In this document: one piece after another, positions 9,501-22,867 of the stretch | How the letters are laid out: each line of letters opens with the position of its first letter | Numbering within the stretch: the stretch's first letter is position 1 | Source: Escherichia phage vB_EcoM_TH18 | Length of the DNA stretch: 64,000 nucleotides | Direction: 5' to 3' (one strand) | Sequence record: ON075799 | Program-made: the position numbers and the translations under genes | Notes under the pieces: model-generated | The model's input: the letters and a program-made list of their open reading frames with translations, nothing else | Told to the model about the DNA's origin: nothing | The model's database searches: none

Positions 9501-9540
9501 CGAGAATGCTACTCATAACACCACACAATGTCAACCCCTC

Positions 9541-9859
9541 CCATATGTCCCCATTTCAGGGACATTATGATCTAATATAATATATATTATATAATATAAT
9601 TTAATATAATACTACGTATTATATATATTATAATATATATATATAATTTATATAAAATACACTAAGTCTTGAAGAATGTCAAGACTTGATTTTAAATATT
9701 TTTGTTGATATGATTCGATTGAGTCGAATCGTATGGTTCGATGATTTCGAATCATAGAGTTCATGTTGTTTTGCCTGAAATCGTGAGTCGATGAGACTCT
9801 TCAGGCAATACGTGAGTGTGTAAGATGCTCACTGCGCTGATAGCTTGTGATCATCTAAC
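9541..9859. promoter_or_regulatory. divergent intergenic control region: about 80-bp near-pure A/T tract (9585-9660) plus short palindromes and TCGA-containing repeats
   Basis: Composition and repeats read directly; lies between the leftward (tRNA/NAD) and rightward (small-gene) transcription units. Confidence 0.5.
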
Positions 9860-9978
9860 CCTCATGAGCCATTCTGAGATAAACCCACATCAACAAACCC
9901 CACAGGTTTGTCTCTGTGTGTTAATCTCAATCATGGATTCGGGTTGTCACAAGTCACTATGTGACTCTGTGTGGGGAT
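9860..9978. repeat. 119-bp inverted repeat, copy A (identical to the reverse complement of 63882-64000)
   Basis: Base-by-base comparison of the reverse complement of the window end with 9860-9978: 119/119 identical. Confidence 0.9.
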
Positions 9979-10094
9979 TTCGAATGTGTACCGGAGCATG
10001 GCGCACAGGACTGGTTCATCTGTCCGTCTCAACTGGGGCGCGGCGGGGGTTAAGGTTTAGTTTTACGTTTTGTGTGGGTGTGGAGGAGAGTTTT

Positions 10095-10373
10095 ATGGCC
10101 TACGATGAAAATTCTATCCGGGTGCTGTCACCTGATGATATCAAACAACGATTTGACTGGGTACGCATCGGGGATTTGGTTCACGAATATAACTTACCTG
10201 TGGATTGGGTCAGACGTGGCTTTGAAGCGTGCTGGAGGTTAAACATCGAGCCTGATTATTTTATCAACAAGTACATCCTCAAGCAGGATGTTGAACCTGT
10301 ACCTGATTTCGAGGTTGTTTTTAAAGAGATTGTTATGGAGTCTCGATTCAAGGATCAGGTATGCTCCAGGTAG
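10095..10373 (+). CDS. hypothetical protein (92 aa)
   Basis: ATG at 10095 preceded by GGAGGAGAG; the upstream part of ORF 9816-10373 is the repeated non-coding sequence. Confidence 0.45.
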   Translation: MAYDENSIRVLSPDDIKQRFDWVRIGDLVHEYNLPVDWVRRGFEACWRLNIEPDYFINKYILKQDVEPVPDFEVVFKEIVMESRFKDQVCSR

Positions 10374-10491
10374 TCTCAAAAACGCACCTGTGAATCAGAT
10401 TTGCAAATGTAGTCCACAGATAGGTAAAAACATCAACGCAAATCGATTCTCCGCTGGATCTACAGAGTAAATTTTCAATTTTCGGAGAAAA

Positions 10492-10866
10492 ATGATGAAA
10501 CGTACCATGACAGACAAAGAGCGCGAAATTGCCCTCCAGTTAGCAAGAGAAAAAAGAGAGCAACAAAAGCGAGAATGGGCTGCGCTGGCAGAAGCGGGAA
10601 AAATACGCCAACATTTCGCTGACGCTAATCACTGGGCAAGGCTCCGTAGTCAATACGGGATTACATCTCCGTACAAATTAGCTCCGGCAGAAAGTGATCA
10701 TGGCATGAAAATTCTTAGACGAACGATCAGACTGACCGGAGGATTCGAGTGGTTCAATGAGTCTTTCGGTATGGACATCAAGCAGTTTGTCAGAATGAAC
10801 CCTACGTGGTCTGCATACGCTATTCAGGGGGTAATCCTTGAAGAGTGGGATGATTATCAGAATTGA
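10492..10866 (+). CDS. hypothetical protein (124 aa)
   Basis: ORF with GGAGA ribosome-binding site; followed by hairpin and T-run. Confidence 0.5.
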   Translation: MMKRTMTDKEREIALQLAREKREQQKREWAALAEAGKIRQHFADANHWARLRSQYGITSPYKLAPAESDHGMKILRRTIRLTGGFEWFNESFGMDIKQFVRMNPTWSAYAIQGVILEEWDDYQN

Positions 10867-10908
10867 TTTTTGTTGTGTTTCTGGTAATCAACTGGTATGT
10901 TTATTACA

Positions 10909-10944
10909 GGGAGTGATAACCACTCCCGTGTTACTTGTTTTATA
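10909..10944 (+). terminator. hairpin gggagtg-ataac-cactccc followed by T-rich tract
   Basis: Stem-loop and downstream T-rich sequence read from the sequence. Confidence 0.45.
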
Positions 10945-10959
10945 CAGGAGTATTAATAT

Positions 10960-11583
10960 ATGTCTTGGCCTTTTTTGATTTATCTTATTGATGTTCTTAG
11001 CACAGACGGGAAGTATGAAGGTTGGGGATTCTTGTTGTTTCTGTGTGTTATTGTATACATGCTGATGCGTATTCTTCCAAAGATCCTCGAAGAACCTAAG
11101 CTGGATATCTATCCAGGACAAAACCTTGTTTTAGCACAAGACTGGTCACGATTTAAAGCCGGAGATGTTCTTGTTGTGAAGGATACTGCGGGTGGTGATG
11201 TTCTTCTTCGCCACGGGGAGGAATCACTTGGTTCTTGGGTGAGTAAGAGCATTTTACGAAAAGTGTGTAAACTTGATGAAAAACAAGGATATATCCCACA
11301 GCAAGATGCGATGGAAACACCGCGAAAGTTAACTGTGATTGCTATGGTTGTCTGTGTGATGGGTATTCTATACGCCAACTTCATGCCGCAGAAAGAGACT
11401 TCTTACAAGATGCTTGCTGCGTATGTTGGTCAAAACATTGTAGAATCTCCAAGGACTCAACAACTTGCGGATAGCACAATCAAGTATCTGGATGCCCAAA
11501 TCAAGAAGTACACTCAAGAATTAGGTGATACTTCAGGAGTGGCGAGTAAGGATTCTAAGCCTGGTGAGAAGGTGAAAGAGTGA
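10960..11583 (+). CDS. membrane protein (207 aa, two hydrophobic segments)
   Basis: AGGAG ribosome-binding site; hydrophobic stretches at the N-terminus and mid-protein. Confidence 0.55.
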   Translation: MSWPFLIYLIDVLSTDGKYEGWGFLLFLCVIVYMLMRILPKILEEPKLDIYPGQNLVLAQDWSRFKAGDVLVVKDTAGGDVLLRHGEESLGSWVSKSILRKVCKLDEKQGYIPQQDAMETPRKLTVIAMVVCVMGILYANFMPQKETSYKMLAAYVGQNIVESPRTQQLADSTIKYLDAQIKKYTQELGDTSGVASKDSKPGEKVKE

Positions 11584-11945
11584 TGGGAAAGTCATTTGAA
11601 ACAAAACGAATAGCGTTGGACTTTGATGATACTTTCACGCTAGAGCCTGAGAGATGGTCACAATTTGTTGCTCTATTTGCAGCAAAGGATTCAGGTTGGT
11701 GTGTTAAATTTGTTACTTATCGCTTCGATTCAGATGATAACTCTGATATCCAGTTTTGGGCTGAAAAACTAGGTATCGGAATAATTTATTGCAATGGTGT
11801 CCAGAAAGCACAAGTTTGTGCGGAACTTGGCTGGATCCCAGATGTGTGGATAGACGATTTTCCTGTTCTCATCCCTGTGAAACAACAACTACAGGGTATG
11901 CTTTTAGGGATAGAAAATAACGAAGAAAAACATAATGTTAAGTAG
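11580..11945 (+). CDS. HAD-superfamily hydrolase-like small protein (121 aa)
   Basis: DxDxT motif (ALDFDDTFT) and late WIDD motif; 4-bp overlap with the upstream gene. Confidence 0.45.
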   Translation: MMGKSFETKRIALDFDDTFTLEPERWSQFVALFAAKDSGWCVKFVTYRFDSDDNSDIQFWAEKLGIGIIYCNGVQKAQVCAELGWIPDVWIDDFPVLIPVKQQLQGMLLGIENNEEKHNVK

Positions 11946-12130
11946 TTTAAGGGGGAGTGTTGAGAAGCATTGCGTATTACAAATTCAAATGTTGGGAGAA
12001 ACTCTATGATTTGAGCTACCTTATTTTTGGGAATCTCCCTGTCACTGAAGACATTAAACACAAAATGTATCTTTCATACATGAAATACCGTCTCCACGAA
12101 AGAAAGAGTGGTTGATGAGAATGTTATAAT

Positions 12131-12160
12131 GCCCTGTAGAGAGTGTCTACAGGGCTTTAA
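12131..12160 (+). terminator. hairpin gccctgtag-agagtgt-ctacagggc
   Basis: 9-bp perfect stem; only a weak T-run follows. Confidence 0.35.
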
Positions 12161-12182
12161 TGCTTAATCACAGGACTTACCA

Positions 12183-13013
12183 ATGACAAGTATTTTACAC
12201 ACGACAGGTATTTTACCACACTATCAGAAGGAATATTCTTTCCCTGATTTATCTGGGGATATGTTGCAAATATACGACAAAGTGCAAGGCGAAGTGTCGG
12301 AGCTACAATTTAGTTCAGACCCTGATGATGAGCAAGAGTTTGATAAACAGATTTGTCGTGTAGAAAACGAGCTTATAGAGCTACAATCATTAGCCAAATC
12401 AACAGATATCGAAGACTTAAGGCGACACGTTGAGAATCTTGAAAATTTAGTGTTCGGGCTTTCGCAAGCTATTATAAACATTGGTGAAATTGCTAAAATT
12501 GCCTCTGACAAGTTGCCAGACAACACAGAAGATATTGAAGAAGCGTTGCAGAATATCTGCTATGAAGGAAGTTCTGCTCTCGGTTGTGAATGTAATCTAG
12601 GAAATGCTCTTGAAGAGCGTGGGTGGAACCTGTTCCAAAAAACTTTTGTTTATCGTGTTATTGGTGGTGAGTTTCCTCGGCTCATACAACTTAATGCCCT
12701 TTTTGGAAACAGCCAGGGTGATAATATTGCATTAGGTATTGATGGCTGGTTCTGTTTAAGAGGTAAAGAATTAGCATTTTGTTGTGGCGATGATGTGTTA
12801 ATTCTCAATGCTTATAAACCAGGTGTTGAAATAACAACAAAATTAAATGGTAAGTCCACTAAATTTCACACCAGAGAGTTGGAAGATATTTTCATGGACA
12901 TATTTGATCCTACAGAAGACGAAATTCTTATGTATGAAATGACCAGTGGAAAAAGATATGATATTTTGTCGTGGAGAAATATTTTTGGCAAGAAGAGAAA
13001 GCCTGTAGCGTGA
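12183..13013 (+). CDS. hypothetical protein (276 aa)
   Basis: Long ORF, no recognisable motif. Confidence 0.55.
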   Translation: MTSILHTTGILPHYQKEYSFPDLSGDMLQIYDKVQGEVSELQFSSDPDDEQEFDKQICRVENELIELQSLAKSTDIEDLRRHVENLENLVFGLSQAIINIGEIAKIASDKLPDNTEDIEEALQNICYEGSSALGCECNLGNALEERGWNLFQKTFVYRVIGGEFPRLIQLNALFGNSQGDNIALGIDGWFCLRGKELAFCCGDDVLILNAYKPGVEITTKLNGKSTKFHTRELEDIFMDIFDPTEDEILMYEMTSGKRYDILSWRNIFGKKRKPVA

Positions 13014-13036
13014 TATTTTATCACTGATATTTGTTT

Positions 13037-13064
13037 TCCCTGTGATATTTTTGTCACAGGGAAA
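13037..13064. repeat. 10-bp-stem hairpin ttccctgtga / tcacagggaa
   Basis: Perfect inverted repeat immediately after the 12183-13013 gene. Confidence 0.5.
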
Positions 13065-13273
13065 GTTTCAATAGTGGATATTTTCTTGATACTTTAAATT
13101 CCTACCAGAAATTTAAATTCTGTAAATTTAGAAAACTATTACTTATAGGCGTTTCGACACAATTTTGTTATGAAAGCCTTGTTTTTATATAAAAACCTGT
13201 TTTAGCATGGGTGGTAGGATCACACTCCATACTACCTTTATTCCTACAGATGAGCATCTCCATGTTCGAAAAC

Positions 13274-13458
13274 TCGGTTCTCGATCGAAAATTCATTTTC
13301 CAGATCGTATTTGCTCCTTACGGAGAAAATTTTTTAGGGCTACAAGTTTCAGTTCTCGATCGGTTTTTCGATTTCAAAATCGTATTTGTTTTTTCTTGCG
13401 AAATTTTTCGCACGCTCAGTTCTCGATCGAGTTTTCAAAATCGAAATCGTATTTGCTC
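13274..13458. repeat. iteron-like direct repeats (three units of about 42 bp containing GTTCTCGATCG ... ATCGTATTTG)
   Basis: Three imperfect direct repeats at about 13274, 13350 and 13417, plus a tgcgaaa/tttcgca palindrome between the second and third. Confidence 0.6.
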
Positions 13459-13860
13459 TATAGTGCGAAAAAATTTTTATGGGTATCATAATTCTATCAC
13501 ACACTTAAACGCAAAGCAACATAAAAATTTTTGTTGAATGATAATCATTCTCATTTGCAGAATGACAGGTAGGATCAGTGTCTTATCCTCCCCCGTTGAC
13601 CATCGTCGCCGTAGTTTGAAGTTTATAGCCGTTCTCGGCTTATCTCTTTGTTAGAGATAGATTACCATAATTGATAAAGAAAGCAAGCGTTAATTGTAAT
13701 CTTTACGTTTCTTTACAAATTTATTTTAGACAAACTACCGGCGATCGACCTTCCAACCAGCGCCCTGGTATGTTAGCCCCGCCTTTACGCCGTGGGGATG
13801 GCGTTGCCTCTTCTGTATGTTAGGCATTATAAGCCCAATCCCTGGGCTTGTCAAACATTT

Positions 13861-14124
13861 TTATTTATTTTCTTGCCAGGTTAGGACACCTAACCAGAAA
13901 TGGCAATCACCTTTCGCCCATTGTGGTATATTGCTTTCTTTCCCACCTTCCCGCGCCCAGGAATAACCGCCCGTGTAACTTTGTAATTGATAACTATCCT
14001 CGACCTTATAATCTGACAGGTTGAGAACTGTTTCTACCTTTAAGCCTGTTGCGCTCGCTACCTGGTGGATAGTTCCCCCTTGCCAGCCTAACGCGTGCAT
14101 AAGGTGCATTGTGGTAGTGGTCAT
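13861..14124 (-). CDS. hypothetical protein (87 aa), possible helix-turn-helix regulator, divergently transcribed
   Basis: AGAGGA ribosome-binding site; own sigma70-like promoter; segment GTIHQVASATGLKVETV weakly resembles a helix-turn-helix. Confidence 0.35.
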   Translation of the reverse strand: MTTTTMHLMHALGWQGGTIHQVASATGLKVETVLNLSDYKVEDSYQLQSYTGGYSWAREGGKESNIPQWAKGDCHFWLGVLTWQENK

Positions 14125-14156
14125 TTTTTCTATTCCTCTGTTAGTTGGTTGTCAGA

Positions 14157-14185
14157 ATTGTATCTATAACCAACCAGGTTAGCAA
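14157..14185 (-). promoter_or_regulatory. sigma70-like promoter (TTGCTA-17-TACAAT) for gene 13861-14124
   Basis: -35 and -10 hexamers with 17-bp spacer on the minus strand. Confidence 0.5.
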
Positions 14186-14220
14186 GATAAATAAAAGAGA
14201 AAAATTTTTTAAAAATACTA

Positions 14221-14249
14221 TTGACAGCTAGATAGTATAGGTCTACTAT
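14221..14249 (+). promoter_or_regulatory. sigma70 promoter (TTGACA-17-TACTAT) with AT-rich upstream element
   Basis: Consensus -35, 17-bp spacer; the upstream A/T tract is nearly identical to the one at 19246-19263. Confidence 0.6.
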
Positions 14250-14303
14250 GTGCACATCAAGGCGATACACCGCCACCAACCAACCTAAAAGGGGTAAATC
14301 AAT

Positions 14304-14927
14304 ATGAAAACCATTGTTAACGCTGAGAATGTATCTTTCGATAAGTTGAACGACGCACAAAAAGAAAAAGCCATTGATCTTATTCGTGAGCGTGAAAGAG
14401 AAAGCGCCGATAATTTCTTTGCGGATAGTGTCATTGAAGACTATAAGAATGACATTTTACCAGAGTACGGGATCGATGACGCGGTTATCTATTGGTCAGG
14501 ATTCTGGTCGCAAGGCGACGGCGCATCTATCAGCACTGATCGCGTGGATATTGAAAAATTTTTAAGAAAAGTTAAATCTTTAACAAAATTTAGAGGTATC
14601 CGCAAACTATTTGATCTTGGTGAATATAGTCAGTTATACGCAAGCATTGAGCGGGATAATTACAGCCGCTACCATCATGAAAATACTGTTTCCGGTTACG
14701 TTGAAACTATGTATTGTGGTGATTTAACGGCAAAACAGGAAGATCTAGCCAATCAGCTTGAAAACTTGTTAACTGAAACGATCCGCGATCTGTCTTGTAA
14801 ACTTTACAGAGATTTAGAATCAGCCTATGATGACCAGTTTACAGATGAAGCCATCACCGAATCAATTGAAGCCAATGATTATCGTTTTGATATTGATGAA
14901 GATGGAGAAGTTTACGCTATCGCTTAA
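14304..14927 (+). CDS. hypothetical acidic protein (207 aa)
   Basis: Ribosome-binding site AAAGGGGTAAAT; strongly D/E-rich. Confidence 0.6.
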   Translation: MKTIVNAENVSFDKLNDAQKEKAIDLIRERERESADNFFADSVIEDYKNDILPEYGIDDAVIYWSGFWSQGDGASISTDRVDIEKFLRKVKSLTKFRGIRKLFDLGEYSQLYASIERDNYSRYHHENTVSGYVETMYCGDLTAKQEDLANQLENLLTETIRDLSCKLYRDLESAYDDQFTDEAITESIEANDYRFDIDEDGEVYAIA

Positions 14928-15014
14928 AAGTACTTGCATTCAGTTTTAAAATAGTATTATACTACTAAAACAGGACGGGGAACTGCTCCCCGTCACATTC
15001 AGGAGATCATCAAA

Positions 15015-15227
15015 ATGGCTAATATTCGCACCTTGTTAAAAAATGCAAAGCAAGTTTTATTTTCCGATCACGATTATTTCAATAAAGACATTACAGGCGT
15101 AAAGAATATCAAAGACGTAAAAAATGTCATGGGTATCTATTGCAATATGAAGCGAGTAGGCACATTTGGCAATAAAGTATTATATCAGGCAGGTGACTAT
15201 AATTTTACTTTGACAATTATTTCATAA
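15015..15227 (+). CDS. hypothetical protein (70 aa)
   Basis: AGGAG ribosome-binding site; preceded by hairpin gacgggga-actgc-tccccgtc. Confidence 0.5.
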   Translation: MANIRTLLKNAKQVLFSDHDYFNKDITGVKNIKDVKNVMGIYCNMKRVGTFGNKVLYQAGDYNFTLTIIS

Positions 15228-15292
15228 AACCACTTGCAAAGTTATATAGCTCTGTTATACTACCAACATTGACAAACGAGAGGTAAATAAAA

Positions 15293-15649
15293 ATGGCAAT
15301 CCAGGCAATCATGTTAGAACTTACAGATTTCCGTAATACTGTAAAAAATTTATCTAAGAAACAGGTTGACAATATCATCAACGGATACCGTAGCAAGATT
15401 AAAGATCTTCCGCTTAAACGCGATCAACATGCGGCTAATATGATGTTTAATGCTATGATTAAAAAGATGATCCAATGTGATCTTTCTCTGGCTTATGAAT
15501 ACGCTGGCGATCTCTTTGCAACGTATAACAAGCCCGTGCTAGGTATGAGCACCACGGAAGAATTACACGCCTTAAATCTGCGGCAAGATGCTTGGGATAA
15601 TATGCACCGCGTTATGGTGTGGGTAGAAAGCGGTAAAATTTATCAATAA
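15293..15649 (+). CDS. hypothetical protein (118 aa)
   Basis: Promoter TTGCAA-16-TATACT at 15235-15262 and ribosome-binding site GAGAGGTAAAT. Confidence 0.55.
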   Translation: MAIQAIMLELTDFRNTVKNLSKKQVDNIINGYRSKIKDLPLKRDQHAANMMFNAMIKKMIQCDLSLAYEYAGDLFATYNKPVLGMSTTEELHALNLRQDAWDNMHRVMVWVESGKIYQ

Positions 15650-15703
15650 AAGTAGTTGACTTTTAGTTATGCCGTGATAGAATACACGGCATAGATAAGA
15701 GAA
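15650..15703 (+). promoter_or_regulatory. 54-bp repeated promoter/operator element, copy 1 (TTGACT ... TAGAAT with the -10 inside an 8-bp-stem palindrome)
   Basis: Direct repeat of 19883-19936 with one mismatch. Confidence 0.6.
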
Positions 15704-15725
15704 ACTACTTATCAGAGTTTAAAAG

Positions 15726-15944
15726 ATGAAAAATATTACGGGTAAAACCGAACTATTAAAGGCGCTTTCTGTTGGTGAGTCAGCTTTATGGGTATGTGAA
15801 AAAGATCGCCTACCATCGCGAGAGATGGCCTTATTTAAGGCTTTATCTCTGAAGCTGAAAATTAAATTATCCCAAAAATTAGCGGTTGTTGCCGCACCGA
15901 GGGAAACCGCTTTCAGTGTTGTAATGGTTAAACGGTTGGAGTAG
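15726..15944 (+). CDS. hypothetical protein (72 aa)
   Basis: Small ORF immediately downstream of repeated promoter copy 1. Confidence 0.5.
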   Translation: MKNITGKTELLKALSVGESALWVCEKDRLPSREMALFKALSLKLKIKLSQKLAVVAAPRETAFSVVMVKRLE

Positions 15945-16030
15945 AAAAAAATTAAAAATTATCTTGACAAGCAAAACAGCAAAAATTAAACTTACACACA
16001 GTTAAACAAACAATATTGACGAGGTAAATC

Positions 16031-16402
16031 ATGAAACAGTTAACCGCTTCCCAAAAAACAATGATCCGTGAGTATGTTTTAAATTCTCTTTCTTTTGATC
16101 TTGAATCTGATCTCAAACAAGATCAGATTCAAGAATTAAAAAACCGCTTTGAATCTGAATACTGGTACGATAGCAACAAGAAACGCTATCAAAATGATAA
16201 AGTACAAGGCCTTAAAAACTGGCTACAAGGCTTGCCAAGCGGTGTTGATATTGATTTCACTTATTACGATATTGAGCAACGCCTTAAGGATTTTGGAATC
16301 ATCACCGACACGACCAGAGAAAGCACCATTGAAAAATATGTTTCTGAGTGGTGGGATCTAGTAGCGCCGTTTTATGTGGGTCTGATCGTAAACTTAAAAT
16401 AA
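16031..16402 (+). CDS. hypothetical protein (123 aa)
   Basis: Promoter TTGACA-17-TAAACT at 15964-15992; ribosome-binding site GAGGTAAAT. Confidence 0.55.
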   Translation: MKQLTASQKTMIREYVLNSLSFDLESDLKQDQIQELKNRFESEYWYDSNKKRYQNDKVQGLKNWLQGLPSGVDIDFTYYDIEQRLKDFGIITDTTRESTIEKYVSEWWDLVAPFYVGLIVNLK

Positions 16403-16479
16403 TTCTTGAAAACTGTTTTAAATTGGCTTAAATTAAAGGGGTGAATTTAATCACCCCCAACATGAAAGAGGTTAATCAA

Positions 16480-16791
16480 ATGAATACTTATTTTTCTACT
16501 CGTTCACTTGCACGCATTGCAGCGAAAGAAACAGGCGGTAAAGTTTTAGACAATGGCAAAGATTCACCGATCGGTAAACGTTGGCAGGTTATCCCCGGTT
16601 ATGTTGTCGAAGCCTCCCAGGATACAGCAAAACAACGCGCGGAGATGGAAAATAAACCAGTAGTTACCTTATCCATCGGCAAGCGTAGCAATGTAGCGAA
16701 TAAAGCCCGTAAGGCGCTTTATTACGCCATCAATTACGCAAGAAATAATAAAACTGTACCAGTTTATCATAAGCGTTCATTTAAGAAATAA
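16480..16791 (+). CDS. hypothetical basic protein (103 aa)
   Basis: Ribosome-binding site AAAGAGGTTAAT before the ATG at 16480. Confidence 0.55.
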   Translation: MNTYFSTRSLARIAAKETGGKVLDNGKDSPIGKRWQVIPGYVVEASQDTAKQRAEMENKPVVTLSIGKRSNVANKARKALYYAINYARNNKTVPVYHKRSFKK

Positions 16792-16861
16792 TTTTTAATT
16801 AGATAAAAAAGCGCCCTAGGAAATGGGCGCTAAACAAAAACACTTAAAGAGGTAAATTATT

Positions 16862-17212
16862 ATGACTAATATTGCAGAAGCTTTTCAAAAAGCTATCGAA
16901 AATAAAAACGCTGAGTTGTCTTTAACTTCTCTGGATTTTACGGATGTGTACGGTAACACTTATTTTGTTTATGAGCTTGCTTTTACTTGTCCTGAGTTAA
17001 AAACATGGGAAACGTTGCATAAATCTCGCGAGCTGCAATATGGTTATGGCGATCATGTTCTTCATGTTGCAATGAAAGACCTTTCAACTATCGCCGAGGT
17101 AAAATCTGAGGCCGCATATATTACCCGTTGGGCGCATGACAACGGCTTAAAAATTAGTGTCAACAAGCGCACCAATTGCCGGAAAAAAGATTTAAAACAG
17201 TTTATCGCTTGA
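16862..17212 (+). CDS. hypothetical protein (116 aa)
   Basis: Ribosome-binding site AAGAGGTAAAT. Confidence 0.55.
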
Positions 17213-17237
17213 TCCTGTTAATCATCTTGGTGGTTGT

Positions 17238-17588
17238 ATGATTCAGTTTTATATAATCATCGCGGCGCTTGCAATTTACTTAGGATTGCACAAAAAAGTA
17301 TTCAGGTTAATTCTCTGGTTTTATTACGAGTACAGGATCAGAATGGTTTTCCATTATATTGAATACTCTTTCCACGGTGAGAGATACCACACAAGGAGAT
17401 CCGGCCCATTAAATGATCTTGAGGGAAACGGTTTAATCTGTGAGGTTAAAAAGCGTGGCGGGAAAATTCTTTACCACAAAGAGGGCACTTTTGATTATAT
17501 TGATGAGGTGATTAATTTTAGGCAACAAGCCGTAAAAGATCACGCAAGCAAAATAATCAACGGCAGCTATAAACGCAAAGCGGGGTAA
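17238..17588 (+). CDS. hypothetical protein with N-terminal transmembrane segment (116 aa)
   Basis: Hydrophobic N-terminus IIIAALAIYLGL. Confidence 0.5.
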   Translation: MIQFYIIIAALAIYLGLHKKVFRLILWFYYEYRIRMVFHYIEYSFHGERYHTRRSGPLNDLEGNGLICEVKKRGGKILYHKEGTFDYIDEVINFRQQAVKDHASKIINGSYKRKAG

Positions 17589-17589
17589 T

Positions 17590-17772
17590 ATGCGGAATTT
17601 TGAAAAAATTGTTAAAGCTAATCGCCTGGAATACGGGGAAACAGACGAAAAACGGGAACGGGTAGGCAAACGCCACAAGCCTAAAAAGGTTCCTAAATTG
17701 TGGTGCCCTGATAAATACGACCACAAATTAAAACAACGCATCGCTGAAAAACAGCGATTAAATGCAAGATAA
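17590..17772 (+). CDS. hypothetical basic protein (60 aa)
   Basis: Lys/Arg-rich ORF followed directly by a terminator. Confidence 0.45.
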   Translation: MRNFEKIVKANRLEYGETDEKRERVGKRHKPKKVPKLWCPDKYDHKLKQRIAEKQRLNAR

Positions 17773-17779
17773 CAGACAA

Positions 17780-17803
17780 GGCCGGAACTATCCGGCCTTT
17801 TTA
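17780..17803 (+). terminator. rho-independent terminator (ggccggaactatccggcc + TTTTT)
   Basis: GC-rich hairpin immediately followed by a T-run. Confidence 0.7.
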
Positions 17804-17991
17804 GCACCTAGTAGCGCCTGTAACGATTAAAAAGGCCAACGGTGGCATGATGCACCACAAAATAAAATAGCTCGTTAGAGAGTGTTTTAGAGGCCTTAAA
17901 ATCGATCCGAAAAATATCTATAAAAATGCTTGCAATGCTTTCCCGCTATCGTTATAGTGTTCCCAACAAGCAAGCAAACGAGGTAACGGCA

Positions 17992-18129
17992 ATGATTGAG
18001 ATTCTTAAAAATCCTATTTTGTGTGGTATGGTTGTTTCTGTGTCACTTCCGATCGTGCTGTTAGTCGTTAGCGAAATAGATGATTTTATTTTCAATAAAA
18101 GACTTGCCAACAAGTCAAAAACAAATTAA
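17992..18129 (+). CDS. small membrane protein (45 aa)
   Basis: Promoter TTGCAA-17-TATAGT upstream; ribosome-binding site CGAGGTAA; hydrophobic core. Confidence 0.35.
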   Translation: MIEILKNPILCGMVVSVSLPIVLLVVSEIDDFIFNKRLANKSKTN

Positions 18130-18166
18130 TATAGTACCAACATACTAACTAGCGAGGTGATTTAAT

Positions 18167-18385
18167 ATGTTTGGTTTTATTGTTCTATCTTGTTCTCTTT
18201 CTGTTACTGCTGCAAAGGTAGAATGTAACTACACTGTAAAAGAGACTTTTAATGATGAAAAGTCTTGCAATGTATACGAAAATAATTATAAACTAGGAGA
18301 CGGGGAGCAGTTCGGGATCTGTGATGAATTAAAGGACGGTATCAAGAAAGGCGATAAGCGCCCGATCTTGGTCCTGAAAAAATAA
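18167..18385 (+). CDS. small secreted or periplasmic protein (72 aa, signal-peptide-like N-terminus, 4 Cys)
   Basis: N-terminal hydrophobic segment ending in AAK; ribosome-binding site GCGAGGTGAT. Confidence 0.5.
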   Translation: MFGFIVLSCSLSVTAAKVECNYTVKETFNDEKSCNVYENNYKLGDGEQFGICDELKDGIKKGDKRPILVLKK

Positions 18386-18426
18386 TTTTTCTAATCATGT
18401 TGATCAATTTTTAAGAGGTGAATAAA

Positions 18427-18714
18427 ATGTTTGAAGTTTTCGCGGGTATGTGTTTTTATACAGCTTTGGCAATTCGTCAGTGTGATGATTATATCGTTGA
18501 ATCATACGATGATCAGCTGACTTGCGAAATAGTCGCTAATGACTACGGCAAAAAAGATCGCTGGATTAATCCGGCTTGCATACCATCCCCAGAGGTAGAA
18601 GCCATGCCGGAAGGGGAAGAGGTATCAGATCCAGTTGTGGCGGTATCCTCCTTTTTCGTTGACAACCTGGACGCCCAAGAATTGATCGACATGTATGTAA
18701 AAAATCAAAAATAA
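18427..18714 (+). CDS. hypothetical protein (95 aa)
   Basis: Ribosome-binding site AAGAGGTGAAT before the ATG at 18427. Confidence 0.5.
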   Translation: MFEVFAGMCFYTALAIRQCDDYIVESYDDQLTCEIVANDYGKKDRWINPACIPSPEVEAMPEGEEVSDPVVAVSSFFVDNLDAQELIDMYVKNQK

Positions 18715-18716
18715 CG

Positions 18717-18754
18717 CTTGACGTTGATTTGTGCCGCTTTATAATAGGCGGCAT
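18717..18754 (+). promoter_or_regulatory. sigma70 promoter TTGACG-17-(T)ATAAT with the -10 inside the palindrome tgccgc...gcggca
   Basis: Hexamers plus a 6-bp inverted repeat flanking the -10. Confidence 0.5.
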
Positions 18755-18804
18755 AGGCAAGCGAAAGCGGATATAAATCTTAAACAAGTTAAGAGAGGTA
18801 AATC

Positions 18805-19125
18805 ATGGAACAAGCGAATAAATTTTTCTTTCTGGCTGGGATCGTGGATAATGTGAAATGTGATTTCAAGCGTGAAAATGATAAGACGTTACTCACTTTC
18901 TGCGATATGCTTGATCATGAGAATGCCGACACGTTACGAATCGAGATCCGCACGATAACCAATATCGACAATTTAAGCCGTTTAATTTATAAATCTCATT
19001 CTATAGCCTACAACCTGGAAACATCAACAAGCTGCCTCCAACAAGGAGAGAGCTTGCCCATTCTAAATAGTGCCGATGTATTTGGCGCGGTTGTTGCAAT
19101 TGTAAATGATGTTTTTTCTCGTTGA
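18805..19125 (+). CDS. hypothetical protein (106 aa)
   Basis: Ribosome-binding site AGAGAGGTAAAT. Confidence 0.5.
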   Translation: MEQANKFFFLAGIVDNVKCDFKRENDKTLLTFCDMLDHENADTLRIEIRTITNIDNLSRLIYKSHSIAYNLETSTSCLQQGESLPILNSADVFGAVVAIVNDVFSR

Positions 19126-19263
19126 TTGGTGTTAATATTATGTTAGAGAATATTGTGTTCTTGTGTGGTGTCGTTCTTGCTGTTGTGGTTGGCCTCCTGG
19201 CGACGATGGCGAATATTGTGATCTCAAACAACCTGGCAGGGTAAAAATTTTTAAAAATAGTAT

Positions 19264-19291
19264 TGACATACTTGCGGCATATGGTATTATT
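19264..19291 (+). promoter_or_regulatory. sigma70 promoter (TTGACA-16/17-TATTAT) with repeated AT-rich upstream element
   Basis: The upstream A/T tract plus -35 nearly duplicates 14199-14226. Confidence 0.6.
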
Positions 19292-19341
19292 TACCACATG
19301 AAGGGGCAAGATTGACTTGCCTCACTAACGAAAGGTAAATA

Positions 19342-19611
19342 ATGATGAACATTTCTAAAACTACTTTTAACTTTGCTAAAAAGCGCGGTATTGAGCTTGA
19401 GCTGATCGAAGCGGATGATCGCTTGGTCCTGGCTTTTTATGAGGCTAAAAATGAATGTGAATGGATGTTCTCTTATAATGTTAATCATGATTGCCTAACA
19501 TGGCGCGGCAATATCTATCTTTCAAACGAAGTAAAAGAGGAGTTACCCGCCACGATCACGACTGAGAAAAAACTACGTGAGGTTATTGATTTCATCTCTA
19601 AAAATATCTAA
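19342..19611 (+). CDS. hypothetical protein (89 aa)
   Basis: Ribosome-binding site GAAAGGTAAAT. Confidence 0.5.
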   Translation: MMNISKTTFNFAKKRGIELELIEADDRLVLAFYEAKNECEWMFSYNVNHDCLTWRGNIYLSNEVKEELPATITTEKKLREVIDFISKNI

Positions 19612-19658
19612 GATTACATGAAAAGGGGCGAAAGCCCCTACCGAAGAAGGTAATAAAA

Positions 19659-19883
19659 ATGGATAAAGTAACAAAGATTGAGCATGAGGTAATTGACTTG
19701 GCACGGGCCAACAAGCCATTTGATAAGATTTATTCTAAGGAGAATAAAGAGATCTTGAAAGACCTAACGCAAGGTCAAAAAGATGGCTTGCGCCGCTTAT
19801 ATCGTGAGGCGTATGACTATTTTCGTTGGTGGGAAATAGAAGAGGCTAACGCGAAAATAGAAGGCCTAGAAAATTTAGTATAA
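19659..19883 (+). CDS. hypothetical protein (74 aa)
   Basis: Ribosome-binding site GAAGGTAAT; preceded by hairpin gggcgaaagcccc. Confidence 0.5.
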   Translation: MDKVTKIEHEVIDLARANKPFDKIYSKENKEILKDLTQGQKDGLRRLYREAYDYFRWWEIEEANAKIEGLENLV

Positions 19884-19936
19884 AAGTAGTTGACTTTTAG
19901 TTATGCCGTGATAGAATGCACGGCATAGATAAGAGA
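19883..19936 (+). promoter_or_regulatory. 54-bp repeated promoter/operator element, copy 2
   Basis: Direct repeat of 15650-15703 with one mismatch. Confidence 0.6.
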
Positions 19937-19978
19937 GACGGCACAAGCCATTGATTAAACTTAAAGAGGTAAATTATT

Positions 19979-20380
19979 ATGAATACTTACAAAACTGTTT
20001 TTAATTTCGACAATTTCAAAGCTATCTGCGACGACCAGATCGGCAAGTGCCGTAAAGAAAAAGGATTCTATAAATCTTATAAGTTGATTGCGGTTGTTGA
20101 TGAAGAGATCACCGAAGTGGCAACGCTCAACCTGTACCACACTAACGCTACTAATTACGCTTGCTTATGGATGCACTGGGCCAATATTAAAGGTTGGGAT
20201 CATGGCTATGTTGGCGGGAAAGCAAGCGGATACGGTTACAACAGGGAGGAGGCCGCGATCCATGTCGCAGCTAATAAACTCGGTATCACTGGCAACTGGT
20301 TTAACGGTGAACAATTGTTAGATGCAATGGCACGTAATTTTGATATGAAAGGCGCGAAGGTTATCTGCTGCAACGCGTGA
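19979..20380 (+). CDS. hypothetical protein (133 aa)
   Basis: Ribosome-binding site AAAGAGGTAAAT. Confidence 0.55.
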   Translation: MNTYKTVFNFDNFKAICDDQIGKCRKEKGFYKSYKLIAVVDEEITEVATLNLYHTNATNYACLWMHWANIKGWDHGYVGGKASGYGYNREEAAIHVAANKLGITGNWFNGEQLLDAMARNFDMKGAKVICCNA

Positions 20381-20427
20381 TCACTCAATAGCGGGGAATA
20401 TTCCCCGCTTATAGATAGGGCATAATC

Positions 20428-20886
20428 ATGATTTACGATCTTAAATATTACGACGAATTGAGTATTGCAGCACAATTAACCGCCCGTGTCAATATTATAG
20501 CAGACCTGGAAAATCACCATAGAAAGCGCATAGTCCAGACTATAGCCAGTTTTAAAAATGATCCTCATAAAGTGATTAATGACACGAAGCACATTCAACG
20601 CCTCATAAACGGCGCAAAGACGCTTTATAGTGTACGTCATTACGGGGATGATTACCTTATAAAGTTTATTCGTGATAATCGTTTGATCTTTACCCCTGGT
20701 GGTAGCTATATAACCTATAGCGACGGCTTTATGATGATTATTGGAGGTAAGGAATACACCCCCACGGCCTCACAACAAAAAGCATTGAGAGAGCTTTATA
20801 TAGCCATTAATGAGCGTGGTCAATCATATCATGATTGGTTATATAGAATGCACCACAAAATAAAAATTTTTATGATTCCCGCTTGA
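20428..20886 (+). CDS. hypothetical protein (152 aa)
   Basis: ORF preceded by hairpin ggggaatattcccc. Confidence 0.55.
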   Translation: MIYDLKYYDELSIAAQLTARVNIIADLENHHRKRIVQTIASFKNDPHKVINDTKHIQRLINGAKTLYSVRHYGDDYLIKFIRDNRLIFTPGGSYITYSDGFMMIIGGKEYTPTASQQKALRELYIAINERGQSYHDWLYRMHHKIKIFMIPA

Positions 20887-20964
20887 CACCTACATAAAAA
20901 CGCCTTATTATCTATCTCATAAGGCGGGGAGCGGTTCCCCGCCACACTTAAGAGGTAAATAATC

Positions 20965-21354
20965 ATGCGTAACCTGGTTCATGTTTCCAACGTTGAAAAA
21001 TTCCAATCTTTACAGGCTATCGTAAACGATACAGCGCCTTTTATCGTTAAAGGCTTGATTGCCAGAATGCAACAGAAAAAACCTGAAATCTGGGCTAATT
21101 ATTGCCTTGATAATGATGATCAGGCTGCCGCTTTCATGGTTGGCGAACTGCTGGGAAGTGTAGGGAACATGCTACCGGAAAACATCGCAGAAGAGATCAC
21201 CTACCGTTATAATATGGCGATAACTTATCAGGAAGTCGCACAATTTAACCTGATGGATGACGACGAACAACAGGATCAGGAAATTTTCTGGGAGTATGCC
21301 GACCGCCAAGCCGTTTTTGATGAGCGGTTAGAGATGTACTATAACGAATGGTAA
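20965..21354 (+). CDS. hypothetical acidic protein (129 aa)
   Basis: Promoter TTGACA-17-TATTAT at 20883-20911; ribosome-binding site TAAGAGGTAAAT. Confidence 0.55.
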   Translation: MRNLVHVSNVEKFQSLQAIVNDTAPFIVKGLIARMQQKKPEIWANYCLDNDDQAAAFMVGELLGSVGNMLPENIAEEITYRYNMAITYQEVAQFNLMDDDEQQDQEIFWEYADRQAVFDERLEMYYNEW

Positions 21355-21359
21355 TAAAC

Positions 21360-21389
21360 AGGCCGCTAATATGCGGCCTTTAATTTTTC
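21360..21389 (+). terminator. rho-independent terminator (aggccgc-taatat-gcggcct + T-run)
   Basis: Hairpin followed by TTTAATTTTT. Confidence 0.65.
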
Positions 21390-21450
21390 TATTGACAATA
21401 TCGCACTAACCTTTAAAATGTTCTTTGTTAAGTATCTTTAAAGGTGTAAC

Positions 21451-21630
21451 ATGTTCCAATCAATCATTGATATTCTATCAGTCGCTAATAACGTGATGAA
21501 CGTAATTACAATGATTAAACTTGTTGCGTGGTTTGTTTCCGGGGATTATCGCTATATTAAATGGCGCAAGCCAACCATAAAAGACGTAGTGAAGATCTCA
21601 TTTGAAGCAATGACAGAATATTATCTATAA
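21451..21630 (+). CDS. hypothetical small protein (59 aa; below the ORF-track cutoff)
   Basis: Promoter TTGACA-16-TAAAAT at 21393-21420, ribosome-binding site AAAGGTG, and an open frame translated by hand. Confidence 0.35.
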   Translation: MFQSIIDILSVANNVMNVITMIKLVAWFVSGDYRYIKWRKPTIKDVVKISFEAMTEYYL

Positions 21631-22859: not shown

Positions 22860-22867
22860 GATAGTAC

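What the first reader, a model, noticed from the sequence alone, without database searches (positions are those of the whole stretch)
9860..9978. 119-bp perfect inverted duplication sitting upstream of two oppositely oriented transcription blocks, 54 kb apart
9860-9978 is identical (119/119) to the reverse complement of 63882-64000, and the match runs into the window edge, so the repeat may be longer. Each copy lies upstream of, and in the same orientation relative to, a major transcription unit: the rightward small-gene module from 10095, and the leftward block from 63889. It carries an internal palindrome (agtcac-tat-gtgact) but no obvious sigma70 hexamers. Such exact conservation of non-coding DNA at two loci suggests a duplicated regulatory element (non-sigma70 promoter, 5' leader or regulator-binding site) or a substrate for recombination; in principle the pair could allow inversion of the segment between them.
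Basis: seen in the sequence. Interest (0 to 1): 0.7.

Follow-up and report, generated by a model that had tools for sequence, protein, structure and literature searches.

The report
Phage inverted repeat, cut short by assembly
The 119-base repeat is real, but it is only the inner tip of a roughly 550-base inverted repeat that brackets a 54-kb block of early and DNA-metabolism genes in a group of E. coli phages, most likely a duplicated promoter-and-leader region; it also breaks nearly every short-read assembly of these phages, including the one this window comes from.

Summary
The 119/119 inverted match is confirmed, but its length is set by a contig end, not by biology. The window joins two GenBank scaffolds of Escherichia phage 18-1-2 (Avunavirus): 1-9565 is the end of OK136180.1 and 9566-64000 is all of OK136181.1. 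Base 64000 is a contig end inside the repeat.

The true repeat is about 550-563 bp. It runs from window 9538 to 9978, plus about 110 bp lost at the scaffold joint. Five lines of evidence support this: k-mer-sized inverted tips on all contig ends of two sister assemblies; a 99.9%-identical assembly that joins 9612-9978 to the right-hand flank; more than ten metagenome contigs of 51-58 kb that end inside it; four contiguous 131-138 kb genomes, three shown crossing one copy and the fourth both; and private SNPs shared by both copies of a genome, which indicates concerted evolution.

In all four contiguous genomes the 54-kb block has the opposite orientation to the window, as in PVP-SE1. The window's orientation is arbitrary. 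Its only other support is Av-05, a chimeric assembly built from 36-nt reads.

The repeat carries conserved back-to-back sigma70-like promoters at a hairpin, an AT-rich core and a hairpin-rich leader of about 260 nt. The 119-mer is the distal part of that leader. Function is inferred, and no inversion isomers were seen.

The parts
9538..9565 (.). Outer tip of the left inverted-repeat (IR) copy. It holds the hairpin ATGTCCC-CATTTCA-GGGACAT. The outer boundary is at 9538.
   Evidence: The same 28 nt occur inverted at OK136180.1 72-99. Sister assemblies show the outer IR part at both ends of their Scaffold1 for exactly 107 nt and 47 nt. The flanks diverge left of 9538 (X side versus gp215-like side).
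9565..9566 (.). Artificial joint between GenBank scaffolds OK136180.1 and OK136181.1. About 106 bp of the IR is missing here: a second GC hairpin and part of the AT-rich core.
   Evidence: Av-05 has 13622->13729 across this point, and the 24-2-1 scaffold runs 79 nt further.
9566..9660 (.). AT-rich core of the IR. Its length and sequence vary between genomes and between the two copies of one genome.
9663..9688 (.). Invariant 10-bp-stem hairpin AAGTCTTGA-AGAATG-TCAAGACTT with T-runs on both sides. It is terminator-like in both directions and carries or abuts the -35 hexamers of two divergent promoter-like sites.
   Evidence: It is invariant in 13 distinct sequences.
9686..9714 (+). Inward-pointing sigma70-like promoter TTGATT-17-TGaTATGAT with an extended -10. 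The predicted transcription start is about 9721.
   Evidence: The -10 hexamer is invariant in 13 sequences; the variable sites fall at the sixth base of the -35 hexamer (TTGATT/TTGATA), in the spacer and at the N of TGN. It lies inside the part shown to be duplicated.
9654..9682 (-). Outward-pointing sigma70-like promoter TTGACA-17-TATTTT. In the copy next to X it would drive the PRPP-synthase/NAMPT/tRNA block.
   Evidence: 10 of 12 matches. The hexamers are invariant.
9721..9859 (+). Proximal part of the shared leader. It holds GATTCGA/TCGAATC dyads (9726-9762), stem-loop 9771-9808 and the stem-loop that starts at 9811 and closes at 9866, inside the 119-mer. A hypervariable patch lies at about 9760-9772.
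   Evidence: Fold z-scores are -5.5 on the plus strand and -6.4 on the minus strand. This stretch joins directly to the B-right flank in JZOQ01000111.1, OVXI01000030.1 and L016/L032.
9860..9978 (+). The reported 119-mer, left copy. It is the distal part of the shared leader: a long imperfect hairpin at 9869-9936 (apex CCACA about 9898-9902) and a composite hairpin whose stem starts at 9937 and closes just past the repeat at 9985, with apex AGTCAC-TAT-GTGACT at 9952-9966. A (CT)n(GT)n microsatellite lies at 9966-9975.
   Evidence: 2-5-nt indels in the microsatellite rule out coding.
9979..10094 (+). Copy-specific leader in front of the first small early gene.
10095..10373 (+). First gene (92 aa) of the rightward small-gene (early) module, 10095-22859.
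63882..64000 (-). The reported 119-mer, right copy, cut off by the end of scaffold OK136181.1. In the real genome it continues with the reverse complement of about 9538-9859.
   Evidence: The continuation is shown.
63731..63881 (-). Copy-specific leader in front of the gp100-like gene.
63452..63742 (-). First gene of the leftward block (PVP-SE1 gp100-like; called as 92-96 aa). Behind it come metallophosphoesterase, RNA ligase 1, SIR2, DNA ligase, Band_7, exonuclease, ThyX and RNR.
9979..63881 (.). The 53.9-kb segment B bracketed by the IR. It holds two convergent gene blocks that meet in a gene-free zone at 22860-24145.
   Evidence: It is recovered as a stand-alone 51-58 kb contig in many assemblies.

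Best explanation
The 119-mer is the inner end of a genuine inverted repeat (IR) of about 550 bp. One copy sits at each boundary of the 54-kb early/DNA-metabolism segment B of Avunavirus-type phages.

The IR is a duplicated intergenic control region. From outside to inside it contains:
- two GC hairpins;
- a variable AT-rich core;
- an invariant hairpin flanked by back-to-back sigma70-like promoters;
- a leader of about 260 nt made of consecutive stem-loops.

The 119-mer covers about +140 to +258 of that leader. Both copies point inward, so the two convergent gene blocks of B would start from the same promoter and carry the same structured 5' leader. That leader could be a processing, stability or regulator-binding signal; the long imperfect hairpin at 9869-9936 resembles an RNase III-type substrate. 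In the copy next to the tRNA/NAMPT block, the outward promoter would drive that block.

Recombination (gene conversion) keeps the two copies identical.

Shown: the repeat's extent, both sets of flanks, its conservation, concerted evolution, and the artefactual nature of the 119-bp length and of the window's gene order.

Inferred: promoter activity, the transcription start site, the role of the leader, and the idea that co-regulation is what the duplication is for.

The confidence of 0.55 is for the whole statement including the inferred function. For the structural part alone (a real internal inverted repeat of about 550 bp, with the window's order an artefact) I would give about 0.95.
For: Extent and reality of the repeat:
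- All four contig ends of sister assembly 24-2-1 enter the IR by exactly 107 nt, and those of 19-1-2 by 47 nt. Scaffold1 ends enter at the outer side and B ends at the inner side, which is the graph of a collapsed inverted repeat.
- JZOQ01000111.1 (99.9% identical) has window 9612-9978 joined directly to the right-hand flank.
- OVXI01000030.1 and nine 52-58 kb MEGAHIT/Logan contigs end inside the repeat. OVXI01000030.1 and eight of the nine continue past R' into the reverse complement of 96xx-9859; L024 stops about 60 nt in. Contig k141_44713 has 141-nt inverted tips, equal to its k.
- A contiguous 137,934-bp scaffold sequence shows both complete copies, 550 and 563 bp, without Ns. The two junctions were read from scaffolds of the same length in two samples (L032, L053), which I assume are one sequence.
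- PVP-SE1 has no such repeat.

Concerted evolution: 18-1-2 has CCCCACAGG, GTTAATC and CTC--TGTG in both copies. Relatives have CCCTACAGG and GTTGATC in both. AUGU21-1 has the private alleles GCTAC and CTCTCTG in both.

Control-region reading:
- Promoter-like sites lie at 9686-9714 (+) and 9682-9654 (-). Their -10 hexamers and the outward -35 are invariant; the only hexamer change is at the sixth base of the inward -35 (TTGATT/TTGATA), and the other variable sites fall in the spacers and at the N of TGN.
- Both copies lie directly upstream of, and co-oriented with, first genes.
- The leader folds far better than shuffled sequence, z = -5.5.
- Frame-breaking microsatellite indels exclude a coding role.
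Against: - There are no transcript data, so promoter calls are consensus matches only. The scan found 6 sites against 3.0 expected by chance in the 800 nt.
- The fold z-score is equally strong on the opposite strand. The dyads could therefore be DNA-level protein-binding sites rather than RNA structure.
- The alignment offers no compensatory changes, 0 of 87 pairs.
- There is no Rfam match.
- The AT-rich core plus repeated GATTCGA dyads would also suit a replication origin.
- The identity of collapsed repeats in de Bruijn assemblies is partly by construction. However, contig tips of exactly k nt argue that there are no differences within the inner 119-141 nt.
Confidence: 0.55

Rival explanations
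1. Recombination substrate. The IR pair mediates homologous flip-flop inversion of the 54-kb segment, so the phage population holds two genome isomers, as plastid genomes and herpes simplex virus do.
For: - There is about 300 nt of perfect identity in inverted orientation, and concerted evolution proves that the copies exchange sequence.
- Every gene keeps its own IR-borne upstream region in either orientation, so both isomers should be viable.
- Most assemblies break at the IR.
- Large inversions distinguish genera of this subfamily. The rV5 gene numbers quoted in the PVP-SE1 annotation imply a module of roughly 40 kb that is inverted between rV5 and PVP-SE1.
Against: - All four independently resolved genomes have the same, PVP-SE1-like orientation: 131,744, 135,805, 137,934 and 137,628 bp, from three studies and two assemblers.
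- No contig read from the X side or the B-left side shows the other orientation.
- The only records with it are an arbitrary concatenation and Av-05, built from 36-nt reads and chimeric.
- Contig breaks are expected at any 550-bp repeat, with or without isomers.
Confidence: 0.2
2. Twin replication origins. Each IR copy would be an origin, with an AT-rich unwinding element, iteron-like GATTCGA dyads and a priming promoter, duplicated in inverted orientation like oriS in the herpes simplex short-region repeats or the origins in plastid IRs.
For: - A nearly pure A+T block of 95 nt in the window, longer in complete copies, constrained in composition but not in sequence.
- Four GATTCGA/TCGAATC elements within about 45 nt right next to it, all invariant.
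- An adjacent promoter.
- Strong dyad symmetry on both strands.
Against: - No initiator gene is linked to it and no origin has been described for this subfamily.
- GC skew follows transcription polarity only and shows no extra inflection at the co-directional copy.
- The AT block sits exactly where an UP element or curved DNA of a strong promoter is expected.
- PVP-SE1 has no counterpart repeat.
Confidence: 0.12
3. The inner 260 nt encodes a stable non-coding RNA, present in two gene copies, rather than an mRNA leader.
For: - A very stable modular fold, z = -5.5.
- A core of about 116 nt (roughly 9784-9900) that is almost invariant, while flanking coding DNA differs by 5-7%.
- A promoter lies directly upstream.
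Against: - No terminator separates it from the first genes.
- There is no Rfam family match and no covariation.
- The opposite strand folds equally well.
Confidence: 0.08
4. The inverted repeat itself is an assembly artefact, such as a chimeric hairpin contig or a mis-join.
For: - The window is a concatenation whose end lies in the repeat.
- The 119-nt length, like 107, 47 and 141 nt in other assemblies, is set by k-mer size.
- One scaffold containing it is stitched together with 10-N gaps.
Against: - Both copies, with different flanks and copy-specific AT cores, are present in contiguous N-free contigs from unrelated projects and assemblers.
- Lineage-specific alleles track in both copies.
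Confidence: 0.02

Closest known systems
Plastid genome inverted repeats (LSC-IR-SSC architecture); from my own knowledge
   Same: Two identical inverted copies split a circular map into a long (about 80 kb) and a short (about 54 kb) unique region. The copies evolve in concert. Short-read assemblies yield exactly three graph nodes, and the orientation of one region is arbitrary in deposited records.
   Different: Plastid IRs are 10-30 kb, carry rRNA operons, and flip-flop isomers are demonstrably equimolar. This repeat is 0.55 kb and non-coding, and only one orientation has been seen.
Herpes simplex virus inverted repeats flanking UL and US (four isomers; oriS inside the repeat); from my own knowledge
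   Same: A viral dsDNA genome with inverted repeats that bound a large unique segment and carry promoter and possibly origin-type elements. Homologous recombination acts between the copies.
   Different: HSV repeats are kilobases long and encode genes, and the isomers are proven. The system is eukaryotic.
Site-specific invertible segments of phages Mu (G), P1 (C) and p15B; from my own knowledge
   Same: Inverted repeats in a phage genome bound a segment that can in principle invert. The P1 C segment even has about 0.6-kb repeats.
   Different: Those systems have a dedicated serine invertase (Gin/Cin) and an enhancer, a 3-4 kb segment and alternative tail-fibre genes. Here no recombinase lies within 10 kb of either copy, the segment is 54 kb, and no gene is split or switched by inversion.
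Phage T7 early leader (strong promoters followed by an RNase III hairpin before gene 0.3); from my own knowledge
   Same: A sigma70 promoter is followed by a long structured leader with an imperfect hairpin of about 30 bp in front of the first early gene.
   Different: T7 has one copy and its processing is shown experimentally. Here the element is duplicated and nothing has been tested.
Salmonella phage PVP-SE1 (Seunavirus), the X|gp099-gp100 intergenic region
   Same: The genes on both sides are the same and divergent: PRPP synthase/NAMPT/tRNAs on one side and gp100, phosphoesterase, RNA ligase, Sir2 and ligase on the other. The resolved Avunavirus-type genomes have this same order.
   Different: PVP-SE1 has no second, inverted copy and no detectable DNA similarity to the IR.

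Membership tests
Homologous inverted-repeat pair bounding a unique segment (plastid/HSV type) | Two copies in inverted orientation at two internal loci of one molecule, each with distinct flanks | tested here: met
   X-IR-Bright and gp215-IR'-Bleft are both seen in an N-free 137,934-bp scaffold sequence, read from scaffolds of that length in two samples. Three more contigs of 131-138 kb cross the gp215-IR'-Bleft junction.
Homologous inverted-repeat pair bounding a unique segment (plastid/HSV type) | Concerted evolution of the two copies | tested here: met
   Lineage-private alleles are present in both copies of 18-1-2 and of AUGU21-1. Each sequence variant is found with both flank types.
Homologous inverted-repeat pair bounding a unique segment (plastid/HSV type) | Both orientation isomers present in the population | tested here: inconclusive
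   Four of four resolved assemblies share one orientation. The opposite one exists only in a concatenated record and in the chimeric 36-nt-read Av-05 assembly. Read-level data were not available.
Site-specific invertible segment (Gin/Cin/Hin type) | Serine or tyrosine recombinase gene adjacent to the segment | tested here: not met
   No recombinase Pfam hit on any called gene within 10 kb of either copy. None is annotated in 18-1-2 Scaffold1 or in PVP-SE1.
Site-specific invertible segment (Gin/Cin/Hin type) | Inversion swaps alternative coding ends or promoter connections | tested here: not met
   Both repeat boundaries are intergenic, and each block keeps the same upstream sequence in either orientation.
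Terminal redundancy / direct terminal repeats of a phage chromosome | Direct orientation at the two physical ends of the virion DNA | tested here: not met
   The orientation is inverted, and both copies are internal in contiguous 131-138 kb contigs.
Inverted terminal repeats of protein-primed linear genomes (phi29/PRD1 type) | The repeats are the molecule's termini | tested here: not met
   The apparent termini are contig ends whose depth into the repeat equals the assembler's k: 47, 107, 119 and 141 nt. Other contigs read straight through.
Sigma70-type promoter | -35 and -10 hexamers with 16-18 nt spacing, conserved among relatives | tested here: met
   TTGATT-17-TATGAT with a TG extension at 9686-9714. 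The -10 is invariant in 13 sequences and the -35 varies only at its sixth base. This is a consensus match only.
Sigma70-type promoter | Mapped transcription start | not testable with these tools
   No transcriptome data are available.
Described RNA families (Rfam 15) | Covariance-model match | tested here: not met
   No match with E-value up to 1 in 9400-10200 on either strand.
Assembly artefact | The feature disappears or changes in independent contiguous assemblies | tested here: not met
   The repeat persists. Only its 119-nt length and the X-to-small-gene adjacency are artefactual.

The most novel reading that the evidence does not exclude
Avunavirus-type virulent coliphages would have a plastid-like genome. 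Two 0.55-kb inverted repeats, homogenised by gene conversion, would let 40% of the chromosome flip by homologous recombination, so virions carry two genome isomers. Alternatively or additionally, the repeats would be twin replication origins. Either would be a genome architecture not, to my knowledge, described for tailed phages of enterobacteria.
Probability: 0.2. Interest if true: 0.65.

Novelty: new variant of a known kind. Interest (0 to 1): 0.42.

Why it matters
There are three practical consequences and one biological one.

1. The repeat explains why every GenBank record of this genus is fragmentary or wrong. The three marmot phages are deposited as 54-kb plus 79-kb 'partial genomes', and for 18-1-2 those two scaffolds also appear joined as a 133,882-bp sequence with arbitrary orientation. 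The ICTV exemplar Av-05 lacks 26 kb, has a mis-oriented 61-kb segment and contains 11 kb of a T4-like phage.

2. Hundreds of metagenome and E. coli assemblies contain 51-58 kb contigs with inverted tips that could be mistaken for complete linear genomes with inverted terminal repeats.

3. The true genome is about 134-138 kb with PVP-SE1-like order. That is what taxonomy and comparative work should use.

Biologically, this is a clean natural case of a duplicated promoter/leader kept identical by gene conversion in a virulent phage. It gives a direct handle, by long reads or junction PCR, on intragenomic recombination rates in rV5-like phages.

Tried and rejected
- **Av-05 as independent support for the window's gene order.** Rejected. 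It was assembled from 36-nt reads. It has 11 kb that is 100% identical to T4-like phiC120, lacks window 38040-63881, and carries a mis-oriented 61-kb segment.
- **JZOQ01000111.1 junction 20901|63694 as a real rearrangement.** Rejected. It is a 10-N scaffold gap.
- **Coding potential of the repeat** (ORF 9816/9864 in frame with the first gene; ORF 63784-63996). Rejected because of 2-5-nt microsatellite indels among relatives.
- **Rfam** at permissive threshold: nothing.
- **Covariation test of the leader fold:** no informative sites, 0 of 87 pairs.
- **Motif searches.** ACAGGTTTGT has three exact hits (R, R' and the right-hand leader), with 16 hits at up to one mismatch against 5.9 expected; I did not follow this up. 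The GTCAC-NNN-GTGAC hairpin has two weak extra hits at 23.45-23.52 kb, not above chance.
- **GC skew as an origin indicator:** it follows transcription only.
- **Search for the repeat elsewhere.** IMG/VR returns only Av-05, and GTDB genomes return nothing. In PVP-SE1 there is none.
- **Attempts to reach the second junction of a more distant relative** (UViG_2974564184). These failed for tool reasons. A look-up of a 69% homologue of the first gene landed on a Col plasmid and was irrelevant.

Full report
**1. Observation**

Window 9860-9978 is the exact reverse complement of 63882-64000 (119/119), with 53,903 nt between the arms. It is the only long inverted repeat in the window. A chance match of this length is effectively impossible; by my arithmetic the expectation is about 1e-60. 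Both copies point inward:
- The left copy lies 116 nt upstream of the ATG at 10095, the first of a run of small plus-strand genes that ends at 22859.
- The right copy lies about 150 nt upstream of a gp100-like gene (63452-63730/63742, minus strand), which heads the minus-strand block reaching down to 24145.

The small palindrome AGTCAC-TAT-GTGACT is at 9952-9966. No sigma70-like hexamer pair lies inside the 119 nt.

**2. Where the window comes from**

- BLAST against GenBank phages shows that window 1-9565 is the last 9,565 nt of OK136180.1, 'Escherichia phage 18-1-2 clone Scaffold1, partial genome' (79,447 bp).
- Window 9566-64000 is the whole of OK136181.1, Scaffold2 (54,435 bp). Both matches are 100% identical.
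- A 133,882-bp contig (79,447 + 54,435) carrying the same proteins is on record. The window is therefore the tail of a simple concatenation.

Two consequences follow. Base 64000 is a real contig end. The 9565/9566 junction is a joint between scaffolds, where about 106 bp of AT-rich DNA is missing relative to Av-05.

**3. The repeat is about 550 bp, not 119 bp**

Five independent lines agree.

(a) Two sister assemblies from the same laboratory are 100% identical in sequence but were cut differently:
- The 54-kb contig of 24-2-1 spans window 9872-63988, with 107 nt of repeat at each end. That of 19-1-2 spans 9932-63928, with 47 nt at each end.
- The two ends of the 24-2-1 Scaffold1 are reverse complements of each other for exactly 107 nt. 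The 19-1-2 Scaffold1 start enters the outer side of the repeat by 47 nt, the same depth as its B-contig ends; its other end was not read.
- In 18-1-2 itself, Scaffold1 positions 72-99 are the inverted copy of window 9538-9565.
- Tips whose length equals an odd k-mer on all four contig ends are the signature of a collapsed inverted repeat in a de Bruijn graph. Both ends of the long unique region enter the repeat at its outer side, and both ends of the short one enter at its inner side.
- The outer boundary is window 9538 (CTCCCATATGTCCCC...). Left of it the two flanks diverge.

(b) JZOQ01000111.1 is a scaffold in an E. coli assembly and is 99.9% identical to the window. It contains a contig in which window 9612-9978 is joined directly to the right-hand flank (CTTCGTCGTATC...).

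(c) Metagenome contig OVXI01000030.1 (94% identical) reads from the right-hand block through R' and on into the reverse complement of 9626-9859.

(d) A look-up of one exactly conserved B protein returned nine independent 52-58 kb MEGAHIT/Logan contigs (L016-L024):
- All are segment B, and all end inside the repeat.
- Seven stop 128-149 nt in, L024 stops after about 60 nt, and L016 runs 336 nt in.
- All but L024 show sequence beyond the 119-mer.
- Contig k141_44713 has identical inverted tips of 141 nt, equal to its k.
- More B-only contigs of 51-58 kb came from look-ups on the other side.

(e) Four contiguous, N-free, near-complete genomes of relatives about 95% identical cross the repeat:
- They are MUNK18-1 scaffold_44 (131,744 bp), MUNK18-1 scaffold_66 (135,805 bp), AUGU21-1 scaffold_86/96 (137,934 bp) and MEGAHIT k141_9622 (137,628 bp).
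- In the AUGU21-1 genome both copies could be read, 550 and 563 bp. The two junctions came from scaffolds of identical length in two samples, which I assume are the same sequence.

PVP-SE1, in another genus of the subfamily, has no such repeat. DNA searches find the element only in this group.

**4. Gene order**

Call X the tRNA/NAMPT/PRPP-synthase block (window 1-9537, minus strand). Call B the 54-kb segment, with ends Bleft (small genes) and Bright (gp100-like, phosphoesterase, RNA ligase, SIR2, ligase and onward).

- PVP-SE1 and a distant 149-kb UViG have X divergent from Bright.
- In PVP-SE1 the small early genes follow co-directionally after gp218-gp215.
- All four resolved Avunavirus-type genomes have gp218->gp215-like -> IR' -> Bleft. 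The AUGU21-1 genome also shows X <- IR -> Bright.
- The window shows X next to Bleft only because two scaffolds were pasted together. Scaffold2 is IR(partial)-B-IR'(partial) and carries no orientation information.

The only other record with the window's order is Av-05. It cannot count as evidence, for four reasons:
- It was assembled from 36-nt reads.
- Positions 102867-114087 are 100% identical to the T4-like phage phiC120 from the same laboratory.
- It lacks the 26 kb equal to window 38040-63881.
- It has a 61-kb segment mis-oriented relative to 18-1-2 and PVP-SE1.

No contig read from the X side or the Bleft side shows the window's order.

**5. Anatomy of the repeat, outer to inner**

- Two GC hairpins (ATGTCCC...GGGACAT and TGTCCCC-GTTTT-GGGGACA).
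- A nearly pure A+T core that differs in length and sequence between genomes and between the two copies of one genome.
- An invariant 10-bp-stem hairpin at 9663-9688 with T-runs on both sides.
- Two back-to-back sigma70-like sites there: an inward one, TTGATT-17-TGaTATGAT (9686-9714), and an outward one, TTGACA-17-TATTTT (9682-9654).
- About 260 nt of consecutive dyads, at 9726-9762, 9771-9808, 9811-9866, 9869-9936 and 9937-9985.

In 13 distinct sequences the -10 hexamers and the outward -35 do not vary. The inward -35 varies only at its sixth base (TTGATT/TTGATA). The other variable sites fall in the spacers and at the N of TGN.

The 119-mer is the last two modules of the leader. One is a roughly 30-bp imperfect hairpin with its apex at about 9900. 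The other is the hairpin topped by AGTCAC-TAT-GTGACT. Together they lie at about +140 to +258 from the predicted start.

- The leader folds much better than shuffled sequence (z = -5.5), but so does the opposite strand (z = -6.4).
- The sequences are too similar for covariation, 0 of 87 pairs.
- Rfam has no match.
- A (CT)n(GT)n microsatellite at the inner end varies by 2-5 nt, which excludes a coding role for the ORFs that cross the repeat.

**6. Concerted evolution**

- Within the inner 119-141 nt the two copies of a genome must be identical. Otherwise contig tips would run further than k.
- Different lineages nevertheless differ there. 18-1-2 has CCCCACAGG, GTTAATC and CTC--TGTG. Relatives have CCCTACAGG, GTTGATC and CTCTGTGTG. 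AUGU21-1 has the private alleles GCTAC and CTCTCTG in both separately read copies.
- Each variant of the hypervariable patch is also found attached to both flank types.

The copies therefore exchange sequence by gene conversion. This shows recombination between the copies. It does not show reciprocal crossover, which is what inversion requires.

**7. Interpretation**

Best supported: a duplicated intergenic control region. Each convergent arm of the 54-kb segment starts from the same promoter and the same structured leader. In the copy next to X, the outward promoter would serve the NAMPT/tRNA block.

- The structural statements are shown.
- Promoter activity, the start site and the leader's role are inferred. 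Candidate roles are an RNase III-type processing or stability signal, or a regulator-binding site.

Rivals:
- Flip-flop inversion: possible, but unobserved in 4 of 4 resolved genomes.
- Twin origins: the AT core plus GATTCGA dyads fit, but GC skew is uninformative.
- A duplicated sRNA gene.
- A pure assembly artefact: excluded for the repeat itself, true for its apparent length and for the window's gene order.

**8. Comparison and novelty**

The architecture resembles plastid LSC-IR-SSC genomes and the herpesvirus repeats, in having internal inverted copies, concerted evolution and assembly ambiguity. It is not a Gin/Cin-type switch:
- No recombinase lies within 10 kb of either copy.
- The segment is 54 kb.
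- No coding end is swapped by inversion.

It is also neither a terminal redundancy nor a protein-primed inverted terminal repeat.

I found no paper that mentions it. Of the eight papers holding 'Avunavirus', I searched the text of two. Of the four holding 'Vequintavirinae' plus 'inverted repeat', I judged the three listed by title and abstract only. I rate it a new variant of a known kind. Its biological interest is moderate. Its practical value is clear for curating this genus and for recognising 51-58 kb contigs with inverted tips in metagenomes.

Noticed in passing
Av-05 reference genome NC_025830.1 / KM190144.1 (L001-L003), especially 102867-114087 and 41739/41740: The ICTV exemplar of Avunavirus is chimeric and incomplete. 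11 kb is 100% identical to the T4-like phage phiC120 from the same laboratory. The 26 kb equal to window 38040-63881 is absent, and the DprA-like gene is truncated at the break. A 61-kb segment is inverted relative to 18-1-2 and PVP-SE1. The genome was assembled from 36-nt reads.
   Followed up: yes
window 9565/9566 and 64000: The window's source is a 133,882-bp concatenation of two 'partial genome' scaffolds, OK136180.1 and OK136181.1. The joint lies in the AT-rich core of the repeat with about 106 bp missing, and the record ends inside the other copy.
   Followed up: yes
window 41892-42132, minus strand: A group I catalytic intron (Rfam RF00028, 79.8 bits against a gathering score of 50) lies between ORFs 41353-41871 and 42085-43260. 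This suggests a split gene, probably the anaerobic ribonucleotide reductase, judging by its position in PVP-SE1.
   Followed up: no
window 22860-24145: A 1.3-kb gene-free zone lies where the two gene blocks converge. It holds five or six copies of TTATTGTGTC(A/G)C-like motifs, each followed by a hairpin. PVP-SE1 has a comparable 2.2-kb gap (116551-118793). It could be an sRNA array, a regulator-site array or an origin.
   Followed up: no
window 15624-15705, 18686-18767, 19858-19939: A family of early-promoter-like repeats, TTGACT-17-TAGAAT, carries a dyad (ATGCCGTG...CACGGCAT) straddling the -10. It could be an operator or a 5' stem-loop shared by several small early genes.
   Followed up: no
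window 13265-13477: Three tandem, diverged repeats of about 70 nt (TTCTCGATCG core) lie in an 850-bp gene-free gap of the small-gene module.
   Followed up: no
window 10095-10373; L062 (JAJAMD010000076.1): The first small early gene has 56-69% identical homologues in E. coli and Salmonella assemblies. One sits on a 7.3-kb Col-type plasmid contig next to Replicase, MobA, cloacin, immunity and lysis genes.
   Followed up: partly
L015/L027/L041 (GCA_002972075.1 JZOQ01000111.1) and L029 (GCA_002972255.1): Two E. coli 'genome' assemblies contain contigs 99.9% identical to this virulent phage, stitched together with 10-N gaps. This points to contamination or a carrier culture.
   Followed up: partly
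L014 (OVXI01000030.1) 14390-14559: In this metagenome contig the right-hand copy's AT core is followed by unrelated sequence: a terminator hairpin and the 3' end of a gene. It is not followed by the outer hairpins and the gp215-like gene. This is either a variant boundary or a chimeric contig.
   Followed up: partly
L017, L019, L020, L024 (relatives of window 44664-46979): The ribonucleotide reductase large subunit is 771 aa in the window but 907 or 1102 aa in some relatives, with intein and LAGLIDADG domains. This indicates mobile-element polymorphism.
   Followed up: no
PVP-SE1 annotation (L007-L009) compared with the rV5 gene numbers quoted in it: The order of the rV5 homologues implies that a module of roughly 40 kb (rIIA side genes plus the replication genes) is inverted between rV5 and PVP-SE1. 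Large inversions therefore separate genera in this subfamily.
   Followed up: no
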